Shown here: positions 13,994-50,567 of the stretch, one piece after another
Layout of the letters: every line of letters begins with the position of its first letter
Numbering within the stretch: position 1 is the first letter of the stretch
Assembly (NCBI GenBank): GCA_965200895.1
Contig: CBDAVM010000002.1
Span: 1,701,089 to 1,765,088, forward strand
Length of the DNA stretch: 64,000 nucleotides
DNA from: Vicinamibacterales bacterium
Lineage (GTDB): Bacteria; Acidobacteriota; Vicinamibacteria; Vicinamibacterales; UBA8438
Direction of reading: 5' to 3'
Made by a program: the position numbers and the translations under genes
The notes under the pieces: generated by a model
The model's input: only the letters and a program-made list of their open reading frames with translations
What the model was told of the DNA's origin: nothing
Databases searched by the model: none

Positions 13994-15670
<1,677 letters not shown>

Positions 15671-38732: not shown

Positions 38733-39860
38733 TCAGTCGCGTCCGGCGCCGTCCCCCGCCCCCGCGCGGGCATCCGCCTCCAGGATCCGCGCGCCGCCGA
38801 GAATGCCCCGGAACGAGTAGTTCGCCTCGTGGCAGGCGTACTCGTAAACCCGGTCGCGGGTGGCCGGCCAGACGTACTCGCCGCTCCAGGGCGCCGTCCA
38901 CACCGTCGGATCGTCGACGGTGAACCGGTACAGCAGCGCATCCGGGCCGATGCGGGTGAAGCGCTCGACCACGTGCAGGTTGCGCGATGCGCCGCCGAGG
39001 GCCGGCGTGTCGTTGAAGTTGGTGGTGTCGACCACCAGCGTGTCACCTTCCCAGTGGCCCACCGAGTCGCCGAGCCAGCTCCGCATCTCAGGCGGCGCGT
39101 GGGGCTGGTTCATCCGCACGATGCGCGCGTCGTGGACCATCTCGACGTGGATCAGCACGTGGTCCTCGGTCTGGACAATCTTCTTCAGGTTGTTGTAGAG
39201 CACGGGCAGCATCGGCGGACCGCCGACCGACCCGAAGCCGAGCAGGCAGCGCTCGGCGAGGGGCCGGATCTCGGGATCGTCGTAGGGGCCGGGCGCGTCG
39301 AGGTCGTCGTCGAGCCACCACGCCGTGCCGGTGTTCGGGCGGAAGAAGCGCGCCCGTTCCGCGGCGCGCGCCCGCGCCGCGTCGGTCAGGGGCGGACGCC
39401 GACCGTCCGGCGGGTCGGTGATGATCGATGTCCGCCACTCGCCGTCGATCCGGAAGACGCCGGTGCCGCGATCGATCCAGAACGTGTTGTAGCCGCCGAC
39501 GTTGCCCGCCGCGCCGCCCGAGCCGTCGCCGCCGACCGGCGGCGCCACCTGCTCGGCCTCCCGCACGCCGCTCTCGGCGTTGCGGGCCTCGCGTCGTTCG
39601 TCGGACCCGCTCGGCGCAATGCTGAAGAGCGTCCTGAGGGCGCCGGGATCGGATGCGACGATCGCCGCCTCCTCCGCGGTGAGCGTCCCGCGCGTACCGA
39701 AGCGCTGCGGGCGCTGCAGCGGCGTCAACGTCGCCGTGTCATAGGTGCCCGACAGATCGGGTCTGCCCTCGGCGGTGCGCGGGATACCGTCCTGCGCCGC
39801 CGCGGTGACCGGCAACGCCAGCCCGACCACCAGGATTGCGGCCATCAATCGACTGCCCAT
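38733..39860 (-). CDS. Secreted protein of unassigned family, paralog B ('YEYACHEANY')
   Basis: ATG 39860 follows GAGGAGA. Signal MGSRLMAAILVVGLALPVTAAAQ. Shares all conserved blocks with 8157..9146 and 39999..41012. Confidence 0.75.
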   Translation of the reverse strand: MGSRLMAAILVVGLALPVTAAAQDGIPRTAEGRPDLSGTYDTATLTPLQRPQRFGTRGTLTAEEAAIVASDPGALRTLFSIAPSGSDERREARNAESGVREAEQVAPPVGGDGSGGAAGNVGGYNTFWIDRGTGVFRIDGEWRTSIITDPPDGRRPPLTDAARARAAERARFFRPNTGTAWWLDDDLDAPGPYDDPEIRPLAERCLLGFGSVGGPPMLPVLYNNLKKIVQTEDHVLIHVEMVHDARIVRMNQPHAPPEMRSWLGDSVGHWEGDTLVVDTTNFNDTPALGGASRNLHVVERFTRIGPDALLYRFTVDDPTVWTAPWSGEYVWPATRDRVYEYACHEANYSFRGILGGARILEADARAGAGDGAGRD

Positions 39861-39971
39861 CGTCTCCTCTCGCATCCGGATGCGGCGAGCGGGGGGCGCC
39901 TGCGCGGCCCGTCCCCCGCCCCCAATCACCGCACGTACGTTCGCCGCCGGTCGCCCGAACAACCCTGCGGA

Positions 39972-39998: not shown

Positions 39999-41012
39999 CT
40001 AGCGGGCCGCCGCGGCCTCGGCCGCCGCCTCCTTCTCGCGCGCCCCGGCCATGATGTTGTACAGGCCGTAGTTGCCCTCGTGACAGGCGTACTCGAAGAT
40101 CGGGAAGTCGTTCTTCACCATCGGGATCCGGTAGGTCCACGGCTGGTCCCACGCGTTCGGGTCCTCGACCGTCACCTCGTACATCAGCGTCCCCTCGGAC
40201 ACCCGCGTGAAGCGCTCGACCAGGTGCAGGGCCGAGGTGGTGACACCGCGGCGGAAGCTGGTCTCGCGCAGGAAGTTCGTGGTCTCGACGACCAGCGTGT
40301 CGCCCTCCCAGCGCCCCCGCGAATCGCCCATCCACTGCCGCAGACCGTCGGGCAGACGGCCCCGCCCATCGAGCGGGATCACGCGCGAGCTGTGCACCAT
40401 CTCGTTCAGCAGCACCACGTGGTCTTCGGTCTGGAACACCTGCACGTTCTGGTTGTAGCCGCCCGGCGTCATCGGCGGTCCCGAGTTGAATCCGAGGATG
40501 CAGCGGACCGCGAACATGCCCGATCCGAGCGTGTCGAGGAAACCGCCGGGGGTCGGCTCGTGGCGGTTGACGCCCTCGCGCGCCCGCGCCTCCGCGTCCA
40601 GCTTCGCCTGCGCCGTCGCGTTCAGCGGCGGCACGCGGCCGTCGGGCGGGTCGATCACCAGCGATGTCTGGTTGGTCTCGCTCACCCTGTCGCCCGGATC
40701 GAACCAGAACTGGTTGTAGTTGCCGACGCCGTCGGCCGGCTCCAGCGTGTCGCGGATCTCGAAGGCGGCGAGGCGATCGGCCTCGTACTGCGCGGCCTCC
40801 TCCTCGGTGAAGAACGCCTGATCCGCCAGCGCTTCCGGCCGCTCGAACGGCGTCAGCGTCCTGAAGTCCCAGACCCCGTTCAGGTCCGGCGCCCCCCACG
40901 CCGTCCGCGGGGCATCCTCGGCCACGTCCTGGGCACGCGCCCCGGCCGGCGCCAGCATCAACGACAACGTGACGACGACAGCGAACGAAGACGTGAACAT
41001 GCCATTGGCCAC
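39999..41012 (-). CDS. Secreted protein of unassigned family, paralog C ('YEYACHEGNY')
   Basis: GTG 41012 sits 6 nt after AAGGAGAG (alternative ATG 41000). Signal FTSSFAVVVTLSLMLAPAGARAQ. Conserved blocks as in paralogs A and B. Confidence 0.75.
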   Translation of the reverse strand: MANGMFTSSFAVVVTLSLMLAPAGARAQDVAEDAPRTAWGAPDLNGVWDFRTLTPFERPEALADQAFFTEEEAAQYEADRLAAFEIRDTLEPADGVGNYNQFWFDPGDRVSETNQTSLVIDPPDGRVPPLNATAQAKLDAEARAREGVNRHEPTPGGFLDTLGSGMFAVRCILGFNSGPPMTPGGYNQNVQVFQTEDHVVLLNEMVHSSRVIPLDGRGRLPDGLRQWMGDSRGRWEGDTLVVETTNFLRETSFRRGVTTSALHLVERFTRVSEGTLMYEVTVEDPNAWDQPWTYRIPMVKNDFPIFEYACHEGNYGLYNIMAGAREKEAAAEAAAAR

Positions 41013-41039
41013 CGGAATCTCTCCTTCTGCGCCCCGGCC

Positions 41040-41125
41040 GGGTCCGGGGCCGCGTTCACCCGGAAGTCTGCGCCGATTGCGACCCGGTCCGGGTCCGGGA
41101 TCGCGTTCACCCGGAACTGCGCCGG
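41040..41125. repeat. Two direct ~35-bp repeats (51-bp period) upstream of paralog C
   Basis: GGGTCCGGGGCCGCGTTCACCCGGAAGTCTGCGCCG (41040-41075) and GGGTCCGGGATCGCGTTCACCCGGAA-CTGCGCCGG (41091-41125). Confidence 0.6.
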
Positions 41126-41300
41126 CCCCGTGGCGTCGGCGCAGACGACGTTGCACCTGGCAACAGGGCGATCCTATCGTCGGCGGCGGGCGGGCGCCAT
41201 CAGGAAACGTCCGCACCCGGCCGCCACCGGGTATACCCGGCATGCGGGTTGCGTGCGCCGGCCGGCCCGGGCGCCGGACCGCGCCGGCCGGAACCGCGCG

Positions 41301-42236: not shown

Positions 42237-42589
42237 CTGCAATCCCTCCTGGACTCGCTCACCGGAGCGCCTTCGACTGTGCACGCCCTTCCCCGGCCGA
42301 CAGCCCCACCGGAATCTCTTCGCGCCGGGTGAGCAGATCCTACTGCCCACGGGCGGTGGAACGCCATCGCTCGCAGAAAGGTGATCAACACACCGAATGG
42401 CAGACCCACCCCACACGAGCACCAGCGATCTCGTAAGCCACTGATAACAAACGGTTTGCGGCCTTGTTACCGATACGCTGGCGCCTCCGGCAGAAACGGA
42501 TTGTTGGTCCGATTGCAGGAACGGTTCCCGGCCCCGTTCGTGGGAATGCCGTGGGAACAACCGTCAGCAGGAGCCGTCGCCGTCTTGAA

Positions 42590-43036
42590 CCGACACGCCG
42601 TCAACACGATGAACACCAGCAGGAGCCGCACCGCCTCGTCGACGTCGTCCGCCGCCCACACCGTCCGCACCGCGTCGGCGACCCGCTTATGCGGGAGATA
42701 CGGATGGTGATCCGGTTCCCGCTTCACCTTCGGCAGCAGCACCTTCAAGTCGGCCGCCGGGTTGTCCTGCCGGCACTTGTGGGCGACGGCGTACTGCATC
42801 ACGCTGTCGAGGCGCTGACGCAGCACGTACCCCTTCGAACCGCGGCCCTTCCAGAACGGAGCGACGATCTGCCGACAGTCGTCGAGCGTCACATCGTTGA
42901 CGACGCGGTCCCCGATGACCGGGAACACGAACGACTCGAACAGATTCCGCCACACCTGTTCGGTGGTCTTGCTGCGCCAACTCGTACTACGGTCCTTGAT
43001 CACCTGCTCGACGACGTCGCGCACCGTCGGCACGCG
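42590..43036 (-). pseudogene. Tyrosine recombinase (P4-type integrase) internal fragment, truncated at both ends
   Basis: TVRDVVEQVIKDRSTSWRSKTTEQVWRNLFESFVFPVIGDRVVNDVTLDDCRQIVAPFW...NPAADLKVLLPK...LLLVFIVLTACR matches the core-binding region up to the first catalytic Arg. The rest of the catalytic domain and the N-terminal DNA-binding domain are missing. Confidence 0.65.
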
Positions 43037-43100
43037 CACGCGCCGCGATGCGTGGCGGGCGAACGCGCCACCGAGGTCACAAGGCCTGCGACCTCGCAAG

Positions 43101-43245
43101 CCCGGAAAGCGTCGCCCGCGGCTCCGCTTCCCGCCCAGCCCGCCTACCAGGAGTCTGTGCCTTTCCACGGCGCAGACTCCTGGCCCGGAAAGCCTCGCCT
43201 GCGGCTCCGCTTCCCGCTCAACCCGCCTCCTAGCAGGAGTAGCAG
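43101..43245. repeat. Two tandem REP-family units (variant of R1/R2); the second runs into the 3' end of the RiPP precursor gene
   Basis: Both units start with a near-identical ~45-nt segment: unit a (43101-43182) CCCGGAAAGCGTCGCCCGCGGCTCCGCTTCCCGCCCAGCCCGCCT, unit b (from 43183) CCCGGAAAGCCTCGCCTGCGGCTCCGCTTCCCGCTCAACCCGCCT. Unit a continues ACCAGGAGTCTGTGCC-tttcca-CGGCGCAGACTCCTGG. Unit b continues CCTAGCAGGAGTAGCAG. Confidence 0.7.
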
Positions 43246-43511
43246 TACCAGGCGGCGCCGCCGGCGACGTTCTCGAGCTGTTCCTCGTCGAGCTCGGGCA
43301 CTGGCGGGAGGGCGATGTGGGCGTTCTCCATGTCAATCTGATGCACGTGCACCCGCATGCTGTCCGGGATTTCAACGCCGAATTCGCGGCTGATGACGGC
43401 CTTGGGGTCGGCCACAAATGCCGCCCGGAAGTGGGTATCCTCGCCCGCCTTGTCGACGATCTTCTGCCGGATCTCCTCCGCCGTCACCATCATGCTCTCG
43501 AAACTCGGCAT
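43230..43511 (-). CDS. NHLP (nitrile-hydratase-like leader peptide) family RiPP precursor, leader ...LENVAGG, core AAWYCYSC
   Basis: ATG 43511 sits 6 nt after AAGGAGG. Leader AEEIRQKIVDKAGEDTHFRAAFVADPKAVISREFGVEIPDSMRVHVHQIDMENAHIALPPVPELDEEQLENVAGG matches the NHLP leader pattern, including the double-Gly end. Followed by 8 residues with 2 Cys and 1 Ser. Confidence 0.8.
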   Translation of the reverse strand: MPSFESMMVTAEEIRQKIVDKAGEDTHFRAAFVADPKAVISREFGVEIPDSMRVHVHQIDMENAHIALPPVPELDEEQLENVAGGAAWYCYSC

Positions 43512-43691
43512 CTTCATCCTCCTTGCATGCACGGATGCCAGCCTGGCTTGCACGGAAGGCAGGCTTCCATACCCAGTGGTCTCCGAGCGAGACAGATGCG
43601 GCGTTCTGCATGCCGACCCCGCACCGAACCCCCTGCCACCGTACCACGTCTTCCGAACGTCAGGTCGCCCGCTCCACGGAAATCGTCCTCC

Positions 43692-44135
43692 ACCCACACC
43701 CTGCTCGTGACGGTCTGCAACGACTATCTCGACCGCCGCCACGACGACGTCAACCGGCGCCGCATCGCGTCCGGCGCGCCGTGGATGCTGCTGGCCCCGC
43801 GGGGTGAGCGGCCGCTCGTCGGACCGGTCTTCTCGGCCGGCGGAGCAGGGACCGTGCTGGGCCTGTCTCGCCCATCGCCTGCGCGGTCACCGGGAGATCC
43901 ACGAGTTCGTGCGCAGGCTCGCCGGCGACGACCGCGCGCCGGCGCCGCGGGTGTCCGAGCCGGTCGTGGACGCCGTGTACGACCTGGCCGCAGCCGAGAT
44001 CGCCAAGTGGCTGGTCCTCGACGCGCTGGCGCCGCTGCAGGCAGTGAGCGCCTCCGGCTGTACGAAACCTTCATCCAACCGGCCGCCGCGCGACTCCATG
44101 CGCACCTCCACATTCAACCCGGCGTACCATGGCTT
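43692..44135 (+). pseudogene. TOMM-type cyclodehydratase docking (SagC/E1-like) domain remnant with at least two frameshifts and no YcaO domain
   Basis: Frame 3: THTLLVTVCNDYLDRRHDDVNRRRIASGAPWMLLAPRGERPLVGPVFSAGG. Frame 1: GPCWACLAHRLRGHREIHEFVRR...AAAEIAKWLVLDALAPLQ. Frame 3 again: ERLRLYETFIQPAAARLHAHLHIQPG. Joined, these give the PWL...GP.F.PG..GPCW.CL..RL pattern of bacteriocin cyclodehydratase domains. Confidence 0.6.
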
Positions 44136-44241
44136 GCGGTCGAAGCCCGAACCGTCCCGGAGAACGACGGCGGGAAACATCAGCTCACGGCCGCAACACG
44201 ACCCAAACCTGAATCCGAGACCCAAGCCATCTGACGGTCCC

Positions 44242-45243
44242 ATGCACGACGAGACGTACAAGAAGCTCTTCGCCTCCCGCCACATGGTCGAGGACCTGGT
44301 GCGGGCCTTCGGCCCGGCCCCGATCGCCGACCAGATTGACTACACGTCGCTCCGACGACTGTCCTCCGAGCTGATCAGCCACGACCTGCAGAAGCGCTCC
44401 GGCGACACCATCTGGTCAGCCACGCTCCGCGCGGACGCCCACGCCAAACGAGCACAGAAGCTCTACCTGCTGATCCTGCTCGAGTTCCAGTCCACCCACG
44501 ACCACTGGATGGCGCTCCGCATGGCGGTCTACACCGCGCTGCTGTACCAGAACGGCATACGCGATGGAACGATCACGCCAGCAACCGGCCTCCCGCCCGC
44601 ACTCCCGATCGTCGTGCACAACGGTGACCGCCCGTGGCGCGCGCCCCGCTCGATGCGCGAGCTAAGCGCACTCAGCGACGAGAGTCTGCGCGAACACCAG
44701 CTCTCGCAGAAGTACGTGCTCGTCGATCTCCAGCAGACCAACGCCGACGACATCGCACCGGACAACCTGATGACCGCGCTCGCACGAATTGAGCAAAGCC
44801 AATCCGCCACCGACCTGCCGGGCGTGGTATCGTCGCTCGACGGGCTGCTCGGCCGACGACCCGGCAACGACGAACTCAGGAACACGTTCCGGATCTGGAT
44901 CGAGCAGCTTGCAGGACGGCTGTCCCCGGACCAGCCGCTCCCGCCCTCAGCAACGTTAGGAGAACTGAAAATGACCCTCGAGGAACGCCTCGCCGAGTGG
45001 CCCAAACAGTACATCGCGCAAGGTCGCGCCGAAGGCCGCGCCGAAGGTCAGCTCAACACTCTCTGTCAACTGGCTACAGCCAAGTTCGGTGCCGCCGCCG
45101 GGCAACCGACAGGCGAAGCGCTGGCCCCGCTGACCGACACCCACGCCCTCGACACCGCAGGCCGGCACCTGCTCACAGCTACCTCGCTCGACGACTTCCT
45201 CGCCCGTATCCGCTCCATCCCATCCCACAAGGCAACGCCGTAG
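44242..45243 (+). CDS. Rpn/YhgA-like recombination-promoting nuclease (PD-(D/E)XK putative transposase)
   Basis: Trimmed to ATG 44242. MHDETYKKLFASRHMVEDLVRAF...IDYTSL...GDTIWSATLR...KLYLLILLEFQSTHDHWMALRMAVYTALLYQ follows the Rpn-family pattern (HD..fK.lf, D, E.QS). Confidence 0.75.
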   Translation: MHDETYKKLFASRHMVEDLVRAFGPAPIADQIDYTSLRRLSSELISHDLQKRSGDTIWSATLRADAHAKRAQKLYLLILLEFQSTHDHWMALRMAVYTALLYQNGIRDGTITPATGLPPALPIVVHNGDRPWRAPRSMRELSALSDESLREHQLSQKYVLVDLQQTNADDIAPDNLMTALARIEQSQSATDLPGVVSSLDGLLGRRPGNDELRNTFRIWIEQLAGRLSPDQPLPPSATLGELKMTLEERLAEWPKQYIAQGRAEGRAEGQLNTLCQLATAKFGAAAGQPTGEALAPLTDTHALDTAGRHLLTATSLDDFLARIRSIPSHKATP

Positions 45244-49199: not shown

Positions 49200-49291
49200 G
49201 CCAGGAGTCTGCGCCGTAGGTAACGGTGCAGGCTCCTGGTCAGGCCCGGTTGGGCGGCAATCGGAGCCGCAGGCGACGATTGTCGGGCTAG
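49200..49291. repeat. REP/MITE-like element copy R2 (inverted relative to 27308..27398)
   Basis: CCAGGAGTCTGCGCCGT-aggt-AACGGTGCAGGCTCCTGG hairpin, then ..GGGCGGCAATCGGAGCCGCAGGCGACGATTGTCGGGCTAGG. The terminal CTA is the stop codon of the VOC gene 49288..50373. Confidence 0.75.
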
Positions 49292-50490: not shown

Positions 50491-50567
50491 CGGGGCGTGG
50501 CGCAGTCTGGTAGCGCGCCTGCTTTGGGAGCAGGAGGTCCCGAGTTCGAACCTCGGCGCCCCGACCA
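50491..50567 (+). tRNA. tRNA-Pro (anticodon UGG), CCA encoded
   Basis: Folded by hand. Acceptor CGGGGCG/CGCCCCG, D stem GCGC/GCGC, anticodon stem CCTGC/GCAGG with loop TTTGGGA (anticodon TGG), T arm CCGAG-TTCGAAC-CTCGG, discriminator A, then CCA. 77 nt. Confidence 0.9.

What the first reader, a model, noticed from the sequence alone, without database searches (positions are those of the whole stretch)
43230..43511. Intact NHLP-type RiPP precursor with an 8-residue Cys/Ser/aromatic core (AAWYCYSC)
The 85-aa leader matches the nitrile-hydratase-like leader peptide family, with an amphipathic N-terminus, HxxLP-like middle and a terminal ...EEQLENVAGG double-Gly cleavage motif. NHLP leaders are known to guide thiazole/oxazole (TOMM) or lanthipeptide-type maturation. 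The core has 2 Cys and 1 Ser (potential azol(in)e or thioether sites) flanked by Trp/Tyr. The gene has a strong AAGGAGG RBS, yet its only neighbouring maturation gene is a wreck (next finding).
Basis: partly seen in the sequence, partly recalled or inferred. Interest (0 to 1): 0.65.

Follow-up and report, generated by a model that had tools for sequence, protein, structure and literature searches.

The report
Orphaned azole-peptide precursor gene, enzymes lost
This is a real, intact gene for a small antibiotic-like peptide precursor of a kind already known from sponge-associated bacteria, but the enzyme gene that once sat beside it has been destroyed, so the peptide can only be finished by enzymes encoded elsewhere in the genome, if at all.

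Summary
Window 43230-43511 (-) encodes a 93-aa protein. Residues 11-85 match the NHLP leader model TIGR03793 end to end (71.8 bits, cutoff 50.9). They end in GG and are followed by the core AAWYCYSC.

Close homologues show the RiPP signature of a conserved leader and a hypervariable, Cys-rich 6-8-residue core. In the nearest relative with an intact locus, such precursors sit divergently beside a fused 773-aa YcaO cyclodehydratase and a SagB-type dehydrogenase, followed by a double-glycine-peptidase ABC exporter. This is the architecture of the published mpr and srp "proteusin" azol(in)e RiPPs.

In the window only YcaO residues ~150-278 survive. They carry a +1 frameshift and are cut off by an Rpn/YhgA-like gene. 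A truncated integrase lies on the other side of the precursor.

Proteins that appear to lie on the same 2.09-Mb contig include a second precursor, a full-length SagB dehydrogenase and a YcaO called at 583 aa that lacks the N-terminal ~190 residues.

The gene is therefore an orphan from a decayed duplicated module. Maturation in trans is plausible (~0.5) but unproven, because close paralogue leaders show dN/dS of about 1. It is a new member of a known kind and of modest interest.

The parts
43230..43511 (-). Precursor CDS, 93 aa. Leader is residues 1-85 (43257-43511). Core AAWYCYSC is residues 86-93 (43233-43256). Stop TAG is at 43230-43232.
   Evidence: ORF. TIGR03793 71.8 bits (cutoff 50.9), residues 11-85 covering model 2-77/77. 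PDB 8TB1 (MprE7 proteusin) E=3e-7. Conserved leader and hypervariable core in alignment A1. Codon-position GC 0.65/0.37/0.88.
43518..43524 (-). Shine-Dalgarno sequence AAGGAGG, 6 nt before the ATG.
   Evidence: Read directly. The same AAGGAGGATGAAG-ATG context is found in paralogue loci L059, L064 and L065.
43512..43646 (-). 135-nt 5' region of the precursor, shared with paralogue loci. It ends at the junction where the truncated YcaO remnant begins.
   Evidence: 96% identical over 91 nt to L059. The same junction occurs in L064 and L065. No sigma-70-type promoter was found by the consensus scan.
43647..44040 (+). Dead remnant of a fused E1-like/YcaO cyclodehydratase. Only residues ~150-278 of 773 remain, with a +1 frameshift (extra T near 43831). 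The RRE-bearing N-terminus and the entire YcaO domain are missing.
   Evidence: tblastn with the L057 enzyme gives 59% identity (residues 150-214) and 78% identity (residues 210-278) in two frames. TIGR03882 matches only model positions 22-82/164. Sequence read. Identical in L056.
44242..45243 (+). Rpn/YhgA-like (Transposase_31) gene that follows the breakpoint of the YcaO remnant.
   Evidence: PF04754 E=3e-24. NCBIfam RpnA and Rpn-family models hit below their cutoffs. YcaO homology stops at 44040.
43100..43236 (-). Structured 3' flank. It has two copies of a 54-nt hairpin-forming element (43100-43153 and 43183-43236) around a 15-bp hairpin (43147-43183). There is no U-tract.
   Evidence: Repeats D1 and I4. 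Two matches against 0 expected by chance. RNA fold -84.3 kcal/mol, z=-4.2. One hairpin+element unit follows the L059 paralogue, and another lies at window ~49200-49290 between convergent genes.
42467..43021 (-). Truncated tyrosine-integrase fragment, central domain only, just downstream of the precursor.
   Evidence: PF22022 Phage_int_M E=4.7e-17. It matches positions 98-250 of the 413-position integrase model PRK09692. No arm-binding or catalytic domain is present.

Best explanation
The gene encodes a proteusin-type (NHLP-leader) precursor of a short linear azol(in)e peptide.

**Inferred mechanism**
1. [quoted passage not shown]
2. A fused E1-like/YcaO cyclodehydratase docks on the leader. 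It converts Cys90 and Cys93, and possibly Ser92, of the core AAWYCYSC to azolines using ATP.
3. A SagB/ThcOx-type FMN dehydrogenase oxidises the azolines to azoles.
4. A C39-peptidase ABC exporter cuts after G84-G85 and exports the octapeptide.

**Origin of this locus**
- It began as a duplicated [precursor <-> cyclodehydratase] module.
- The enzyme gene then decayed. An N-terminal deletion is shared with two paralogue loci. After that came a frameshift and loss of everything beyond residue 278 next to an Rpn-like gene.
- What remains is an orphan precursor among mobile-element debris.

**Likelihoods**
- Identity as an NHLP azol(in)e-type precursor: about 0.9.
- Orphan by decay of a module: about 0.85.
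- Still expressed and matured in trans by the YcaO (P0045) and SagB dehydrogenase (P0130) that appear to lie elsewhere on the same 2.09-Mb contig: about 0.5.

**Shown versus inferred**
- Inferred: every chemical step, expression, and trans-maturation.
For: **Family and motifs**
- The leader HMM scores above its cutoff over the full model length.
- There is a sequence match to the solved proteusin MprE7, 8TB1, at E=3e-7.
- The AlphaFold model has helices at 11-24, 26-34, 36-44 and 76-82. The two solved proteusin precursors are the top two Foldseek hits, although weakly.

**Paralogues**
- Eight close homologues share 43 invariant leader columns, including L74 and L79. Their cores differ: AAWYCYSC, WCELCC, AWWMNCCC, GGIGYICC, GWFSQCC, GVFASGCC, YIHCGSC, YFSGCS.

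**Intact relative L057**
- The precursor lies divergent to a 773-aa protein with TIGR03882 and TIGR03604, next to a SagB dehydrogenase (TIGR03605, ThcOx).
- NHLP-type ABC/C39/HlyD exporter genes follow.

**Window remnant**
- The remnant is 78% identical to that enzyme over residues 210-278.
- It is nearly identical to the N-terminal part of P0045.

**Enzymes on a contig of the same length**
- P0045 is a YcaO with complete TIGR03882 and TIGR03604 matches.
- P0130 is a 458-aa SagB dehydrogenase.
- P0002 is a second precursor. All three are on a contig of the same length, 2,086,339 bp, as the window's protein.

**Orphan precursors are common in this lineage**
- L059, L060, L064 and L006 carry precursors with no adjacent YcaO.
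- All sequenced paralogues keep open frames and in-frame core length changes, while the flanking remnants carry indels.
- The core WCELCC is identical in P0002 and P0127 despite four leader substitutions.

**Precedent**
- MprC/MprD process ten different MprE precursors and need the L(X)4L motif (PMC12455567).
- srp precursors are among the most highly transcribed genes in sponge symbionts, and only 116 of 343 were co-located with a YcaO (bioRxiv 10.1101/2023.06.09.544420).
Against: - No maturation enzyme or exporter is encoded in the 64-kb window.
- P0045 was called at 583 aa, starting at the equivalent of residue 193. It therefore lacks the ~190 N-terminal residues where fused cyclodehydratases carry the leader-binding RRE.
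- A search with that N-terminal part found no piece from that contig among the listed hits.
- The N-terminal deletion junction is shared by the window, L064 and L065. It therefore predates the paralogue spread and might also affect P0045.
- Among close paralogues, leader dN/dS is 0.86-1.3 with dS of only 0.04-0.08. The window lineage has 7 non-synonymous and 2 synonymous changes.
- Leader DNA diverges at least as fast as the flanking junk, 7.5% against 3-5.5%.
- No sigma-70-like promoter or canonical terminator was detected.
Their DNA could not be fetched.
- No product or transcript data are available.
Confidence: 0.5

Rival explanations
1. The gene is an evolutionary relic. The precursor ORF is still open only because it is short and the decay is recent. 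The pathway in this lineage is defunct: every cyclodehydratase copy lacks its leader-binding N-terminus. The peptide is either not made or made and never modified.
For: - The adjacent enzyme is wrecked and flanked by integrase and Rpn debris.
- The shared N-terminal deletion junction in three paralogue loci shows that the truncation is old relative to the paralogues.
- The only close YcaO on the same-length contig is called at 583 aa, with no N-terminal piece detected.
- In a related strain, the YcaO-dehydrogenase locus L065 is itself rearranged, with only fragments of YcaO left.
- dN/dS is about 1 in the leaders, and the leaders diverge no more slowly than the flanks.
- No promoter-like site was found.
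Against: - At least six paralogues keep intact frames, the GG site and Cys-rich C-termini.
- Their cores changed completely but always in frame. The flanking remnants collected about 2 indels per 180-290 nt in the same comparisons.
- A rough expectation under neutrality is several frame-breaking indels across the paralogues.
- The core WCELCC is conserved between two contigs while the leader changed.
- Window-specific replacements are mostly conservative (D>E, R>K, L>I, N>S) and all lie in codons 3-48, outside the C-terminal recognition part.
- The dehydrogenase P0130 is full length.
Confidence: 0.35
2. The precursor is live but is tailored by a different enzyme set acting in trans through the same NHLP leader. 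Candidates are a flavin-dependent halogenase acting on Trp88 (as SrpI brominates SrpE), radical-SAM or lanthionine enzymes, or a more distant srp-type YcaO rather than P0045.
For: - NHLP leaders are used by several enzyme classes, and SrpI accepts foreign proteusin leaders (PMC10858898, PMC10286304).
- In paralogue locus L059, a 552-aa flavin halogenase-like gene lies directly upstream of two orphan precursors, one of which has the Trp-containing core AWWMNCCC. Its matches are Trp_halogenase and CmlS at E=5.5e-31.
- The window core contains Trp.
- More than 1000 related YcaOs exist in metagenomes, and only the best 120 were listed.
Against: - No halogenase homologue is present in the window or in any other fetched locus.
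- SrpI needs a C-terminal or near-C-terminal Trp (PMC10286304), whereas here Trp is 5 residues from the end.
- The remnant next to the gene and all intact relatives point to YcaO chemistry.
- No LanM or radical-SAM gene was seen next to any close paralogue.
Confidence: 0.1
3. The gene is not a RiPP precursor at all. It would be a small nitrile-hydratase-alpha-like protein with another role, and its C-terminal Cys-rich tail would be incidental.
For: There are weak matches to the nitrile hydratase alpha subunit: PF02979 at 28.6 bits, and PDB nitrile hydratases at E about 1e-5.
Against: - The match covers only the part of NHase alpha that NHLP leaders are known to resemble.
- The specific NHLP model scores far higher.
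- The conserved-leader, hypervariable-core pattern, the GG site and the genomic linkage to YcaO/SagB/C39-ABC in relatives are the RiPP signature.
Confidence: 0.03

Closest known systems
mpr system of Methylovulum psychrotolerans: MprE1-10 precursors, MprC YcaO cyclodehydratase, MprD FMN azoline oxidase (PMC12455567, PMC10286304, PDB 8TB1)
   Same: - The leader is a long, structured NHLP leader (about 81-85 aa) with an L(X)4L motif before a GG boundary.
- Several precursors with different short Cys/Ser cores are served by one fused RRE-YcaO enzyme and one flavin oxidase.
- The window protein hits MprE7 directly (E=3e-7).
- Relatives carry YcaO plus SagB/ThcOx dehydrogenase pairs.
   Different: - The precursors here are scattered around the genome rather than clustered.
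- This copy sits beside a dead enzyme fragment.
- Sequence identity to MprE7 is only about 30%.
- The host is a 70% GC gammaproteobacterial MAG lineage.
- No enzymology exists for this clade.
srp (sponge-derived RiPP proteusin) clusters: SrpE (core LCCCW), SrpC YcaO, SrpI brominase (Nguyen et al. 2021 as cited in PMC10858898; bioRxiv 10.1101/2023.06.09.544420)
   Same: - Both have an NHLP leader, a very short Cys-rich core and YcaO-made thiazol(in)es.
- Both occur in MAGs named for sponge symbionts.
- The wider clade retrieved here (L002-L020) has cores LCCCL, LCCCG, RCCC and LSCCV. It also shares YcaO, ABC, C39-ABC and HlyD-like genes.
- Many precursors are not co-located with a YcaO.
   Different: - The window core (AAWYCYSC) is not LCCCW-like and has no terminal Trp.
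- No halogenase is encoded in the window.
- The window's closest relatives add a SagB dehydrogenase, which the LCCC-type loci fetched here lack.
- The leader is only about 50% identical to the LCCC clade.
NHLP/TOMM systems defined by Haft, Basu and Mitchell 2010 (TIGR03793 with TIGR03882/03604/03605 and exporters TIGR03796/03797/03794)
   Same: - The precursor meets TIGR03793.
- Relatives' enzymes meet TIGR03882, TIGR03604 and TIGR03605.
- The exporters have these NHLP-specific models as their best hits.
   Different: - The exporter scores in L057 fall just under the equivalog cutoffs: 846.6 vs 853.3, 658 vs 709, and 81 vs 156.
- None of these partner genes is intact in the window.
Prochlorosin-type one-enzyme, many-dispersed-precursors arrangement (ProcM with Nif11-leader ProcA peptides; recalled from general knowledge, not tested here)
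   Same: A conserved long leader and hypervariable cores on many precursor genes, several of them far from the modifying enzyme.
   Different: - The leader family differs (Nif11, not NHLP).
- The chemistry differs (lanthionine, not azoles).
- Here the orphans carry visible fragments of former enzyme genes.

Membership tests
NHLP leader peptide family RiPP precursor (TIGR03793) | Score above the curated cutoff of the family HMM, over the whole leader model | tested here: met
   71.8 bits against a cutoff of 50.9, E=3.1e-20. Residues 11-85 cover model positions 2-77/77.
NHLP leader peptide family RiPP precursor (TIGR03793) | Resemblance to the nitrile hydratase alpha subunit in the leader | tested here: met
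   PF02979 scores 28.6 bits against a gathering score of 27.2. PDB nitrile hydratases match at E=1e-5 to 1e-3.
NHLP leader peptide family RiPP precursor (TIGR03793) | Double-glycine type leader end followed by a short, variable core | tested here: met
   The leader ends ...LDEEQLENVAGG|AAWYCYSC. The core is hypervariable among homologues while 43 leader columns are invariant. Weak matches to double-glycine leader models lie at residues 73-87.
Proteusin precursor fold (MprE7 8TB1, DprE2 9CJX) | N-terminal helical bundle, then a looser region with an alpha-4 helix carrying L(X)4L | tested here: inconclusive
   Sequence match to 8TB1 at E=3e-7 and to 9CJX at E=3.4e-4. The model has helices 11-24, 26-34, 36-44 and 76-82 but a mean pLDDT of only 61.7. 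9CJX and 8TB1 are the top Foldseek hits, but at E=0.2-0.5 and TM about 0.45-0.5.
Proteusin/YcaO recognition | L(X)4L motif needed by MprC and SrpI (PMC12455567, PMC10858898) | tested here: met
   L74-D-E-E-Q-L79. Both Leu residues are invariant in alignment A1.
TOMM / linear azol(in)e peptide cluster | Functional YcaO cyclodehydratase encoded with the precursor | tested here: not met
   In the window only residues ~150-278 of 773 remain, and they are frameshifted. The feature is met in relatives L057, L066 and L002-L020.
TOMM / linear azol(in)e peptide cluster | Core with Cys/Ser/Thr available for heterocyclisation | tested here: met
   The core AAWYCYSC has 2 Cys and 1 Ser. Nearly all close paralogue cores end in Cys-rich motifs.
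TOMM / linear azol(in)e peptide cluster | SagB-type FMN dehydrogenase | tested here: inconclusive
   None is present in the window. P0130 (458 aa, 76% identical to the L057 enzyme) is recorded on a contig of the same length as the window's contig. Linkage to this precursor is not testable here.
srp clusters (SrpE/SrpC/SrpI) | LCCCW-type core with a terminal Trp, and an SrpI-type brominase | tested here: not met
   The core is AAWYCYSC. No halogenase homologue is present in the window. A halogenase-like gene is present only at paralogue locus L059.
NHLP-type export apparatus (TIGR03796/03797/03794) | C39-peptidase ABC exporter able to cut the GG leader | tested here: not met
   It is absent from the window. 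tblastn finds only generic ABC ATPase similarity at 14168-15640. It is present in L057, with these models as best hits just below cutoff. The rest of the genome is not testable here.
Any RiPP | Modified peptide product detected | not testable with these tools
   This needs expression and mass spectrometry. Predicted [M+H]+ of the released core: 966.348 unmodified, 926.296 with two thiazoles, 906.270 with three azoles.

The most novel reading that the evidence does not exclude
The lineage maintains a dispersed, rapidly diversifying library of NHLP precursors: at least six cores, with leaders evolving at dN/dS of about 1 or more. The library would have spread as a [precursor + 5'-truncated YcaO stub] cassette. 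It would be serviced by a cyclodehydratase that lacks the canonical RRE-bearing N-terminus. That would imply that the structured NHLP leader can be recognised without an RRE, or through a separate RRE protein.
Probability: 0.12. Interest if true: 0.55.

Novelty: new member of a known kind. Interest (0 to 1): 0.28.

Why it matters
If the gene is live, it adds one more short Trp/Tyr/thiazole-type octapeptide to the srp/mpr proteusin family that is abundant in sponge-associated bacteria. It would also show that this lineage scatters its substrate genes away from the enzymes. Cluster-based genome mining with antiSMASH-style tools would miss such genes.

The locus is also a clear snapshot of how duplicated RiPP modules decay. 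The short precursor stays open while the 2.3-kb enzyme gene is deleted, frameshifted and cut by mobile-element genes.

None of this changes what is known about RiPP biosynthesis. The value is mainly for annotation, where orphan precursors should be linked to distant enzymes, and for choosing cores for heterologous expression.

Tried and rejected
**DNA of the presumed trans-acting genes could not be fetched**
- Exact-protein look-ups for P0002, P0003, P0045 and P0128 returned no record.
- The single genome-contig scan did not return the window's own genome.
- Whether P0045 has an upstream N-terminal extension therefore stays open.
- A chimeric query (YcaO residues 1-195 plus the dehydrogenase) found the dehydrogenase P0130. 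It found no N-terminal YcaO piece from that contig among the 120 listed hits.

**Regulatory signals**
- The sigma-70 promoter and intrinsic-terminator scan of 42900-44300 found 0 sites.
- By eye, a sigma-54-like TGGCA...TGCA upstream of the RBS has the wrong spacing and lies too close to the RBS. It was rejected.
- Rfam at gathering thresholds found only tRNA-Pro at 50491 and nothing near the gene.

**Selection tests**
- dN/dS was expected to show purifying selection on the leader. It did not for close paralogues (0.86-1.3, on few changes).
- Only distant comparisons give 0.23-0.6.
- Comparing the leader with its flanks likewise showed no slower substitution in the leader.

**Other checks**
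- A halogenase homologue was sought in the window and not found.
- The idea that the precursor cassette was inserted into a YcaO gene was rejected. No YcaO N-terminal sequence lies on the other side of the precursor.
- The structure prediction was only moderately confident, and the fold search was not significant.
- The mpr discovery paper (PMC9746716) is not held.
Full report
**Observation**

The ATG is at 43511-43509 and the TAG at 43232-43230, giving 93 aa: MPSFESMMVTAEEIRQKIVDKAGEDTHFRAAFVADPKAVISREFGVEIPDSMRVHVHQIDMENAHIALPPVPELDEEQLENVAGGAAWYCYSC. AAGGAGG lies at 43518-43524, six bases before the ATG. GC by codon position is 0.65/0.37/0.88, which matches the long genes of this 70% GC window.

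The NCBIfam model TIGR03793 (NHLP leader peptide family RiPP precursor) matches residues 11-85 over model positions 2-77 of 77. The score is 71.8 bits against a curated cutoff of 50.9, with E=3.1e-20. Pfam NHase_alpha also passes its gathering score. The leader therefore ends at G84-G85, and the core is the eight residues AAWYCYSC.

**What the gene is**

A search of the large protein collection found only five close relatives at 61-84% identity. Cluster look-up and fetched loci added more. Aligned, they show the classical RiPP pattern.
- Forty-three leader columns are invariant. They include ADPKAVISREFGV, VHVH, NAH-AL-P-P and L74-x4-L79.
- The C-terminal 6-8 residues are unrelated in sequence and mostly end in Cys: AAWYCYSC, WCELCC, AWWMNCCC, GGIGYICC, GWFSQCC, GVFASGCC, YIHCGSC, YFSGCS and GAFHCGCC. 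One core, HSFSATF, has no Cys.

The window protein also matches the solved proteusin precursor MprE7 (PDB 8TB1, E=3e-7) and DprE2 (9CJX). An AlphaFold model from the six-sequence alignment is only moderately confident, with pLDDT 61.7. It shows three N-terminal helices and a helix over LDEEQLE. The same two proteusin structures are its top Foldseek hits, but not significantly.

**Intact relatives**

In the nearest relative whose DNA could be read (L057, a 2.57-Mb contig of a Gammaproteobacteria MAG), each of two precursors is transcribed divergently from two enzyme genes. This two-enzyme module is tandemly duplicated.
- A 773-aa protein carries TIGR03882 (TOMM leader-peptide-binding, E1-like) and TIGR03604 (SagD/YcaO).
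- A 460-aa SagB/ThcOx-type dehydrogenase (TIGR03605) follows it.

Further genes follow the modules.
- A conserved 381-aa protein has no family match.
- Two ABC transporter genes follow, one with a C39 peptidase domain. Their best matches are the NHLP-specific exporter models TIGR03797 and TIGR03796.
- A HlyD-like protein matches TIGR03794.

A second relative, L066, has YcaO, a dehydrogenase, a methyltransferase and three precursors with cores VAGNCW, GNMGCW and GRWGFCG.

A wider clade with about 50% identical leaders has cores LCCCL, LCCCG, RCCC and LSCCV. Its members come from MAGs labelled Candidatus Porisulfidus, Foliamicus and Rariloculus, Vicinamibacterales, and sponge bin sets. Their loci carry the YcaO, the 381-aa protein, the exporters and a methyltransferase, but no dehydrogenase.

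**Comparison with the literature**

This is the published srp/mpr group of proteusin azol(in)e RiPPs.
- SrpE has the core LCCCW. SrpC converts its cysteines to thiazolines, and SrpI brominates the terminal Trp (PMC10858898, PMC10286304).
- MprC (YcaO) and MprD (FMN oxidase) process ten MprE precursors with 81-aa NHLP leaders and need the L(X)4L motif (PMC12455567).
- srp-type precursors are among the most transcribed genes in sponge symbionts. Only 116 of 343 were found next to a YcaO (bioRxiv 10.1101/2023.06.09.544420).
- Sponge microbiomes are rich in NHLP/YcaO clusters (PMC9426513).

The window gene fits the mpr-like variant, with a cyclodehydratase plus an oxidase and several different cores. 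It fits strict srp less well, because it has no LCCCW core and the window encodes no halogenase.

**The surroundings**

Upstream of the precursor, on the + strand, 43647-44040 matches only residues ~150-278 of the 773-aa enzyme. Identity is 59% and 78% in two frames. The frame change is a single extra T near 43831, giving GGACCGGTCTTC-T-CGGCCG.
- The first ~149 codons and part of the intergenic region are missing.
- The whole YcaO domain is missing.
- Homology stops at 44040. An Rpn/YhgA-like gene follows at 44242-45243 (PF04754, E=3e-24).

Downstream of the precursor lies a structured repeat: two copies of a 54-nt hairpin-forming element around a 15-bp hairpin, with fold z=-4.2. Beyond it is a tyrosine-integrase fragment with only the central domain, at 42467-43021.

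No dehydrogenase, exporter, 381-aa protein or halogenase is encoded anywhere in the window. The 2.9-kb region is 100% identical in L056. L056 is a separately assembled 33.5-kb contig that differs from the window elsewhere by 33 mismatches and 14 gaps over 20 kb. The damage is therefore real and not an assembly error.

**Origin of the locus**

The window, L064 (core WCELCC) and L065 (core GVFASGCC) share the same junction 135 nt upstream of the precursor ATG, where the YcaO remnant begins. They retain different lengths of the remnant. L059b, L064 and L065 also carry antisense fragments of the YcaO 3' end downstream of the precursor.

The simplest reading has three steps.
1. Precursor-cyclodehydratase modules were duplicated. 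L057 shows a fresh tandem duplicate.
2. One copy lost the enzyme's 5' end.
3. That unit was copied to further sites, and the enzyme remnants eroded.

Orphan precursors without any nearby YcaO are common in this lineage: L006, L059, L060 and L064.

**Is it still used?**

Evidence for continued use:
- The open frame, the Shine-Dalgarno sequence and the native codon composition.
- The 5' region is conserved with paralogues, 96% over 91 nt with L059.
- All sequenced paralogues are open and changed their cores only in frame. The flanking remnants collected about two indels per 180-290 nt in the same comparisons.
- The core WCELCC is identical in P0002 and P0127 although their leaders differ at four residues.
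- Window-specific replacements are mostly conservative and confined to codons 3-48.
- Proteins recorded on a contig of the same length as the window's (2,086,339 bp) include a second precursor (P0002), a YcaO (P0045) and a SagB dehydrogenase. P0045 is 79% identical to the L057 enzyme and has complete TIGR03882 and TIGR03604 matches. The dehydrogenase, P0130, is full length at 458 aa and 76% identical.

Evidence against continued use:
- P0045 is called at 583 aa, starting at the equivalent of residue 193. It therefore lacks the ~190 N-terminal residues where fused cyclodehydratases carry the leader-binding RRE. That the RRE sits there is domain knowledge from LynD as described in PMC12455567.
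- No N-terminal piece from that contig appeared in the search.
- The shared deletion junction may also apply to P0045.
- dN/dS among close paralogue leaders is 0.86-1.3 on few changes. The window lineage has 7 non-synonymous and 2 synonymous changes.
- The leader diverges no more slowly than the flanks, 7.5% against 3-5.5%.
- No promoter-like site was found.
- The DNA of P0002 and P0045 could not be fetched.

I put trans-maturation at about 0.5, a non-functional relic at about 0.35, and tailoring by a different enzyme set at about 0.1.

**Mechanism, all steps inferred**

The mechanism is inferred from family knowledge and the cited papers.
1. The NHLP leader docks on the cyclodehydratase through L74/L79 and its folded N-terminal part.
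2. The enzyme performs ATP-dependent cyclodehydration of Cys90 and Cys93, and possibly Ser92.
3. An FMN-dependent dehydrogenase oxidises the azolines to azoles.
4. A C39-ABC exporter cleaves after G85 and exports the peptide.

Predicted [M+H]+ values of the released core are 966.348 unmodified, 926.296 with two thiazoles and 906.270 with three azoles.

**Verdict**

The gene is a new member of a known kind, an mpr/srp-type proteusin azol(in)e precursor. Its notable features are its orphan state and the clear record of module decay. Interest is modest.

Noticed in passing
window 43100-43236 and 49200-49290; L059 7861-7935: A unit made of a 15-bp hairpin plus a 54-nt hairpin-forming element recurs. 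The element is duplicated after the precursor and present once after the L059 paralogue. A diverged copy lies between two convergent genes at ~49.2 kb. It looks like a REP-like or terminator-like dispersed intergenic element without a U-tract.
   Followed up: partly
window 42467-43021 (-), 44242-45243 (+), 50491-50567 (+): A truncated integrase (central domain only), an Rpn/YhgA-like putative recombination nuclease, and a tRNA-Pro 7 kb away lie near one another. The stretch from ~42.4 to 50.5 kb may be the scar of a genomic island. Its boundaries were not determined.
   Followed up: no
L059 5416-7074 (+), 7579-8296 (+), 8816-9727 (+): In a paralogue locus, a 552-aa flavin-dependent halogenase-like gene sits directly upstream of two tandem orphan precursors with cores GGIGYICC and AWWMNCCC. 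An IS1-like gene follows them. Peptide halogenation of the SrpI kind is possible, but this halogenase has no homologue in the other loci fetched.
   Followed up: partly
L065 5854-6131, 6704-6893, 7005-8381: In a related low-coverage contig, the dehydrogenase P0130 is preceded only by YcaO fragments. These are residues 382-474 upstream of a precursor, and an overlapping inverted duplication of the last ~40 codons downstream. This is either a real inversion or insertion in the YcaO gene, or a fold-back assembly artefact.
   Followed up: partly
L057 1327-9713: The YcaO+dehydrogenase+precursor module is tandemly duplicated. The two YcaO copies are about 99% identical to each other and the two dehydrogenase copies nearly so. 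The two precursors differ essentially only in the core (YIHCGSC vs YFSGCS). This looks like very recent duplication with core-only change.
   Followed up: partly
L002-L020 (for example L004 10884-11978) and L057 10273-11415: A conserved ~365-381-aa protein with no Pfam or NCBIfam match sits next to the YcaO in nearly all srp-like loci. A ~233-aa methyltransferase is also widely conserved there. The LCCC-core loci lack a SagB dehydrogenase.
   Followed up: partly
window 43257-43511 compared with 43512-43802: The leader-coding DNA differs from paralogues by 7.5-7.8%, while the adjacent non-coding and pseudogene flank differs by only 3.2-5.5% (p=0.03 against L064, not significant for the others). 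This is compatible with diversifying selection or with gene conversion among paralogues.
   Followed up: partly
window 38733-39962 (-) and 39999-41243 (-): Two adjacent paralogous genes of unknown function share motifs such as WEGDTLVV-TTNF and ACHEGNY. The gene calls for the matching contig list no Pfam family for them.
   Followed up: no
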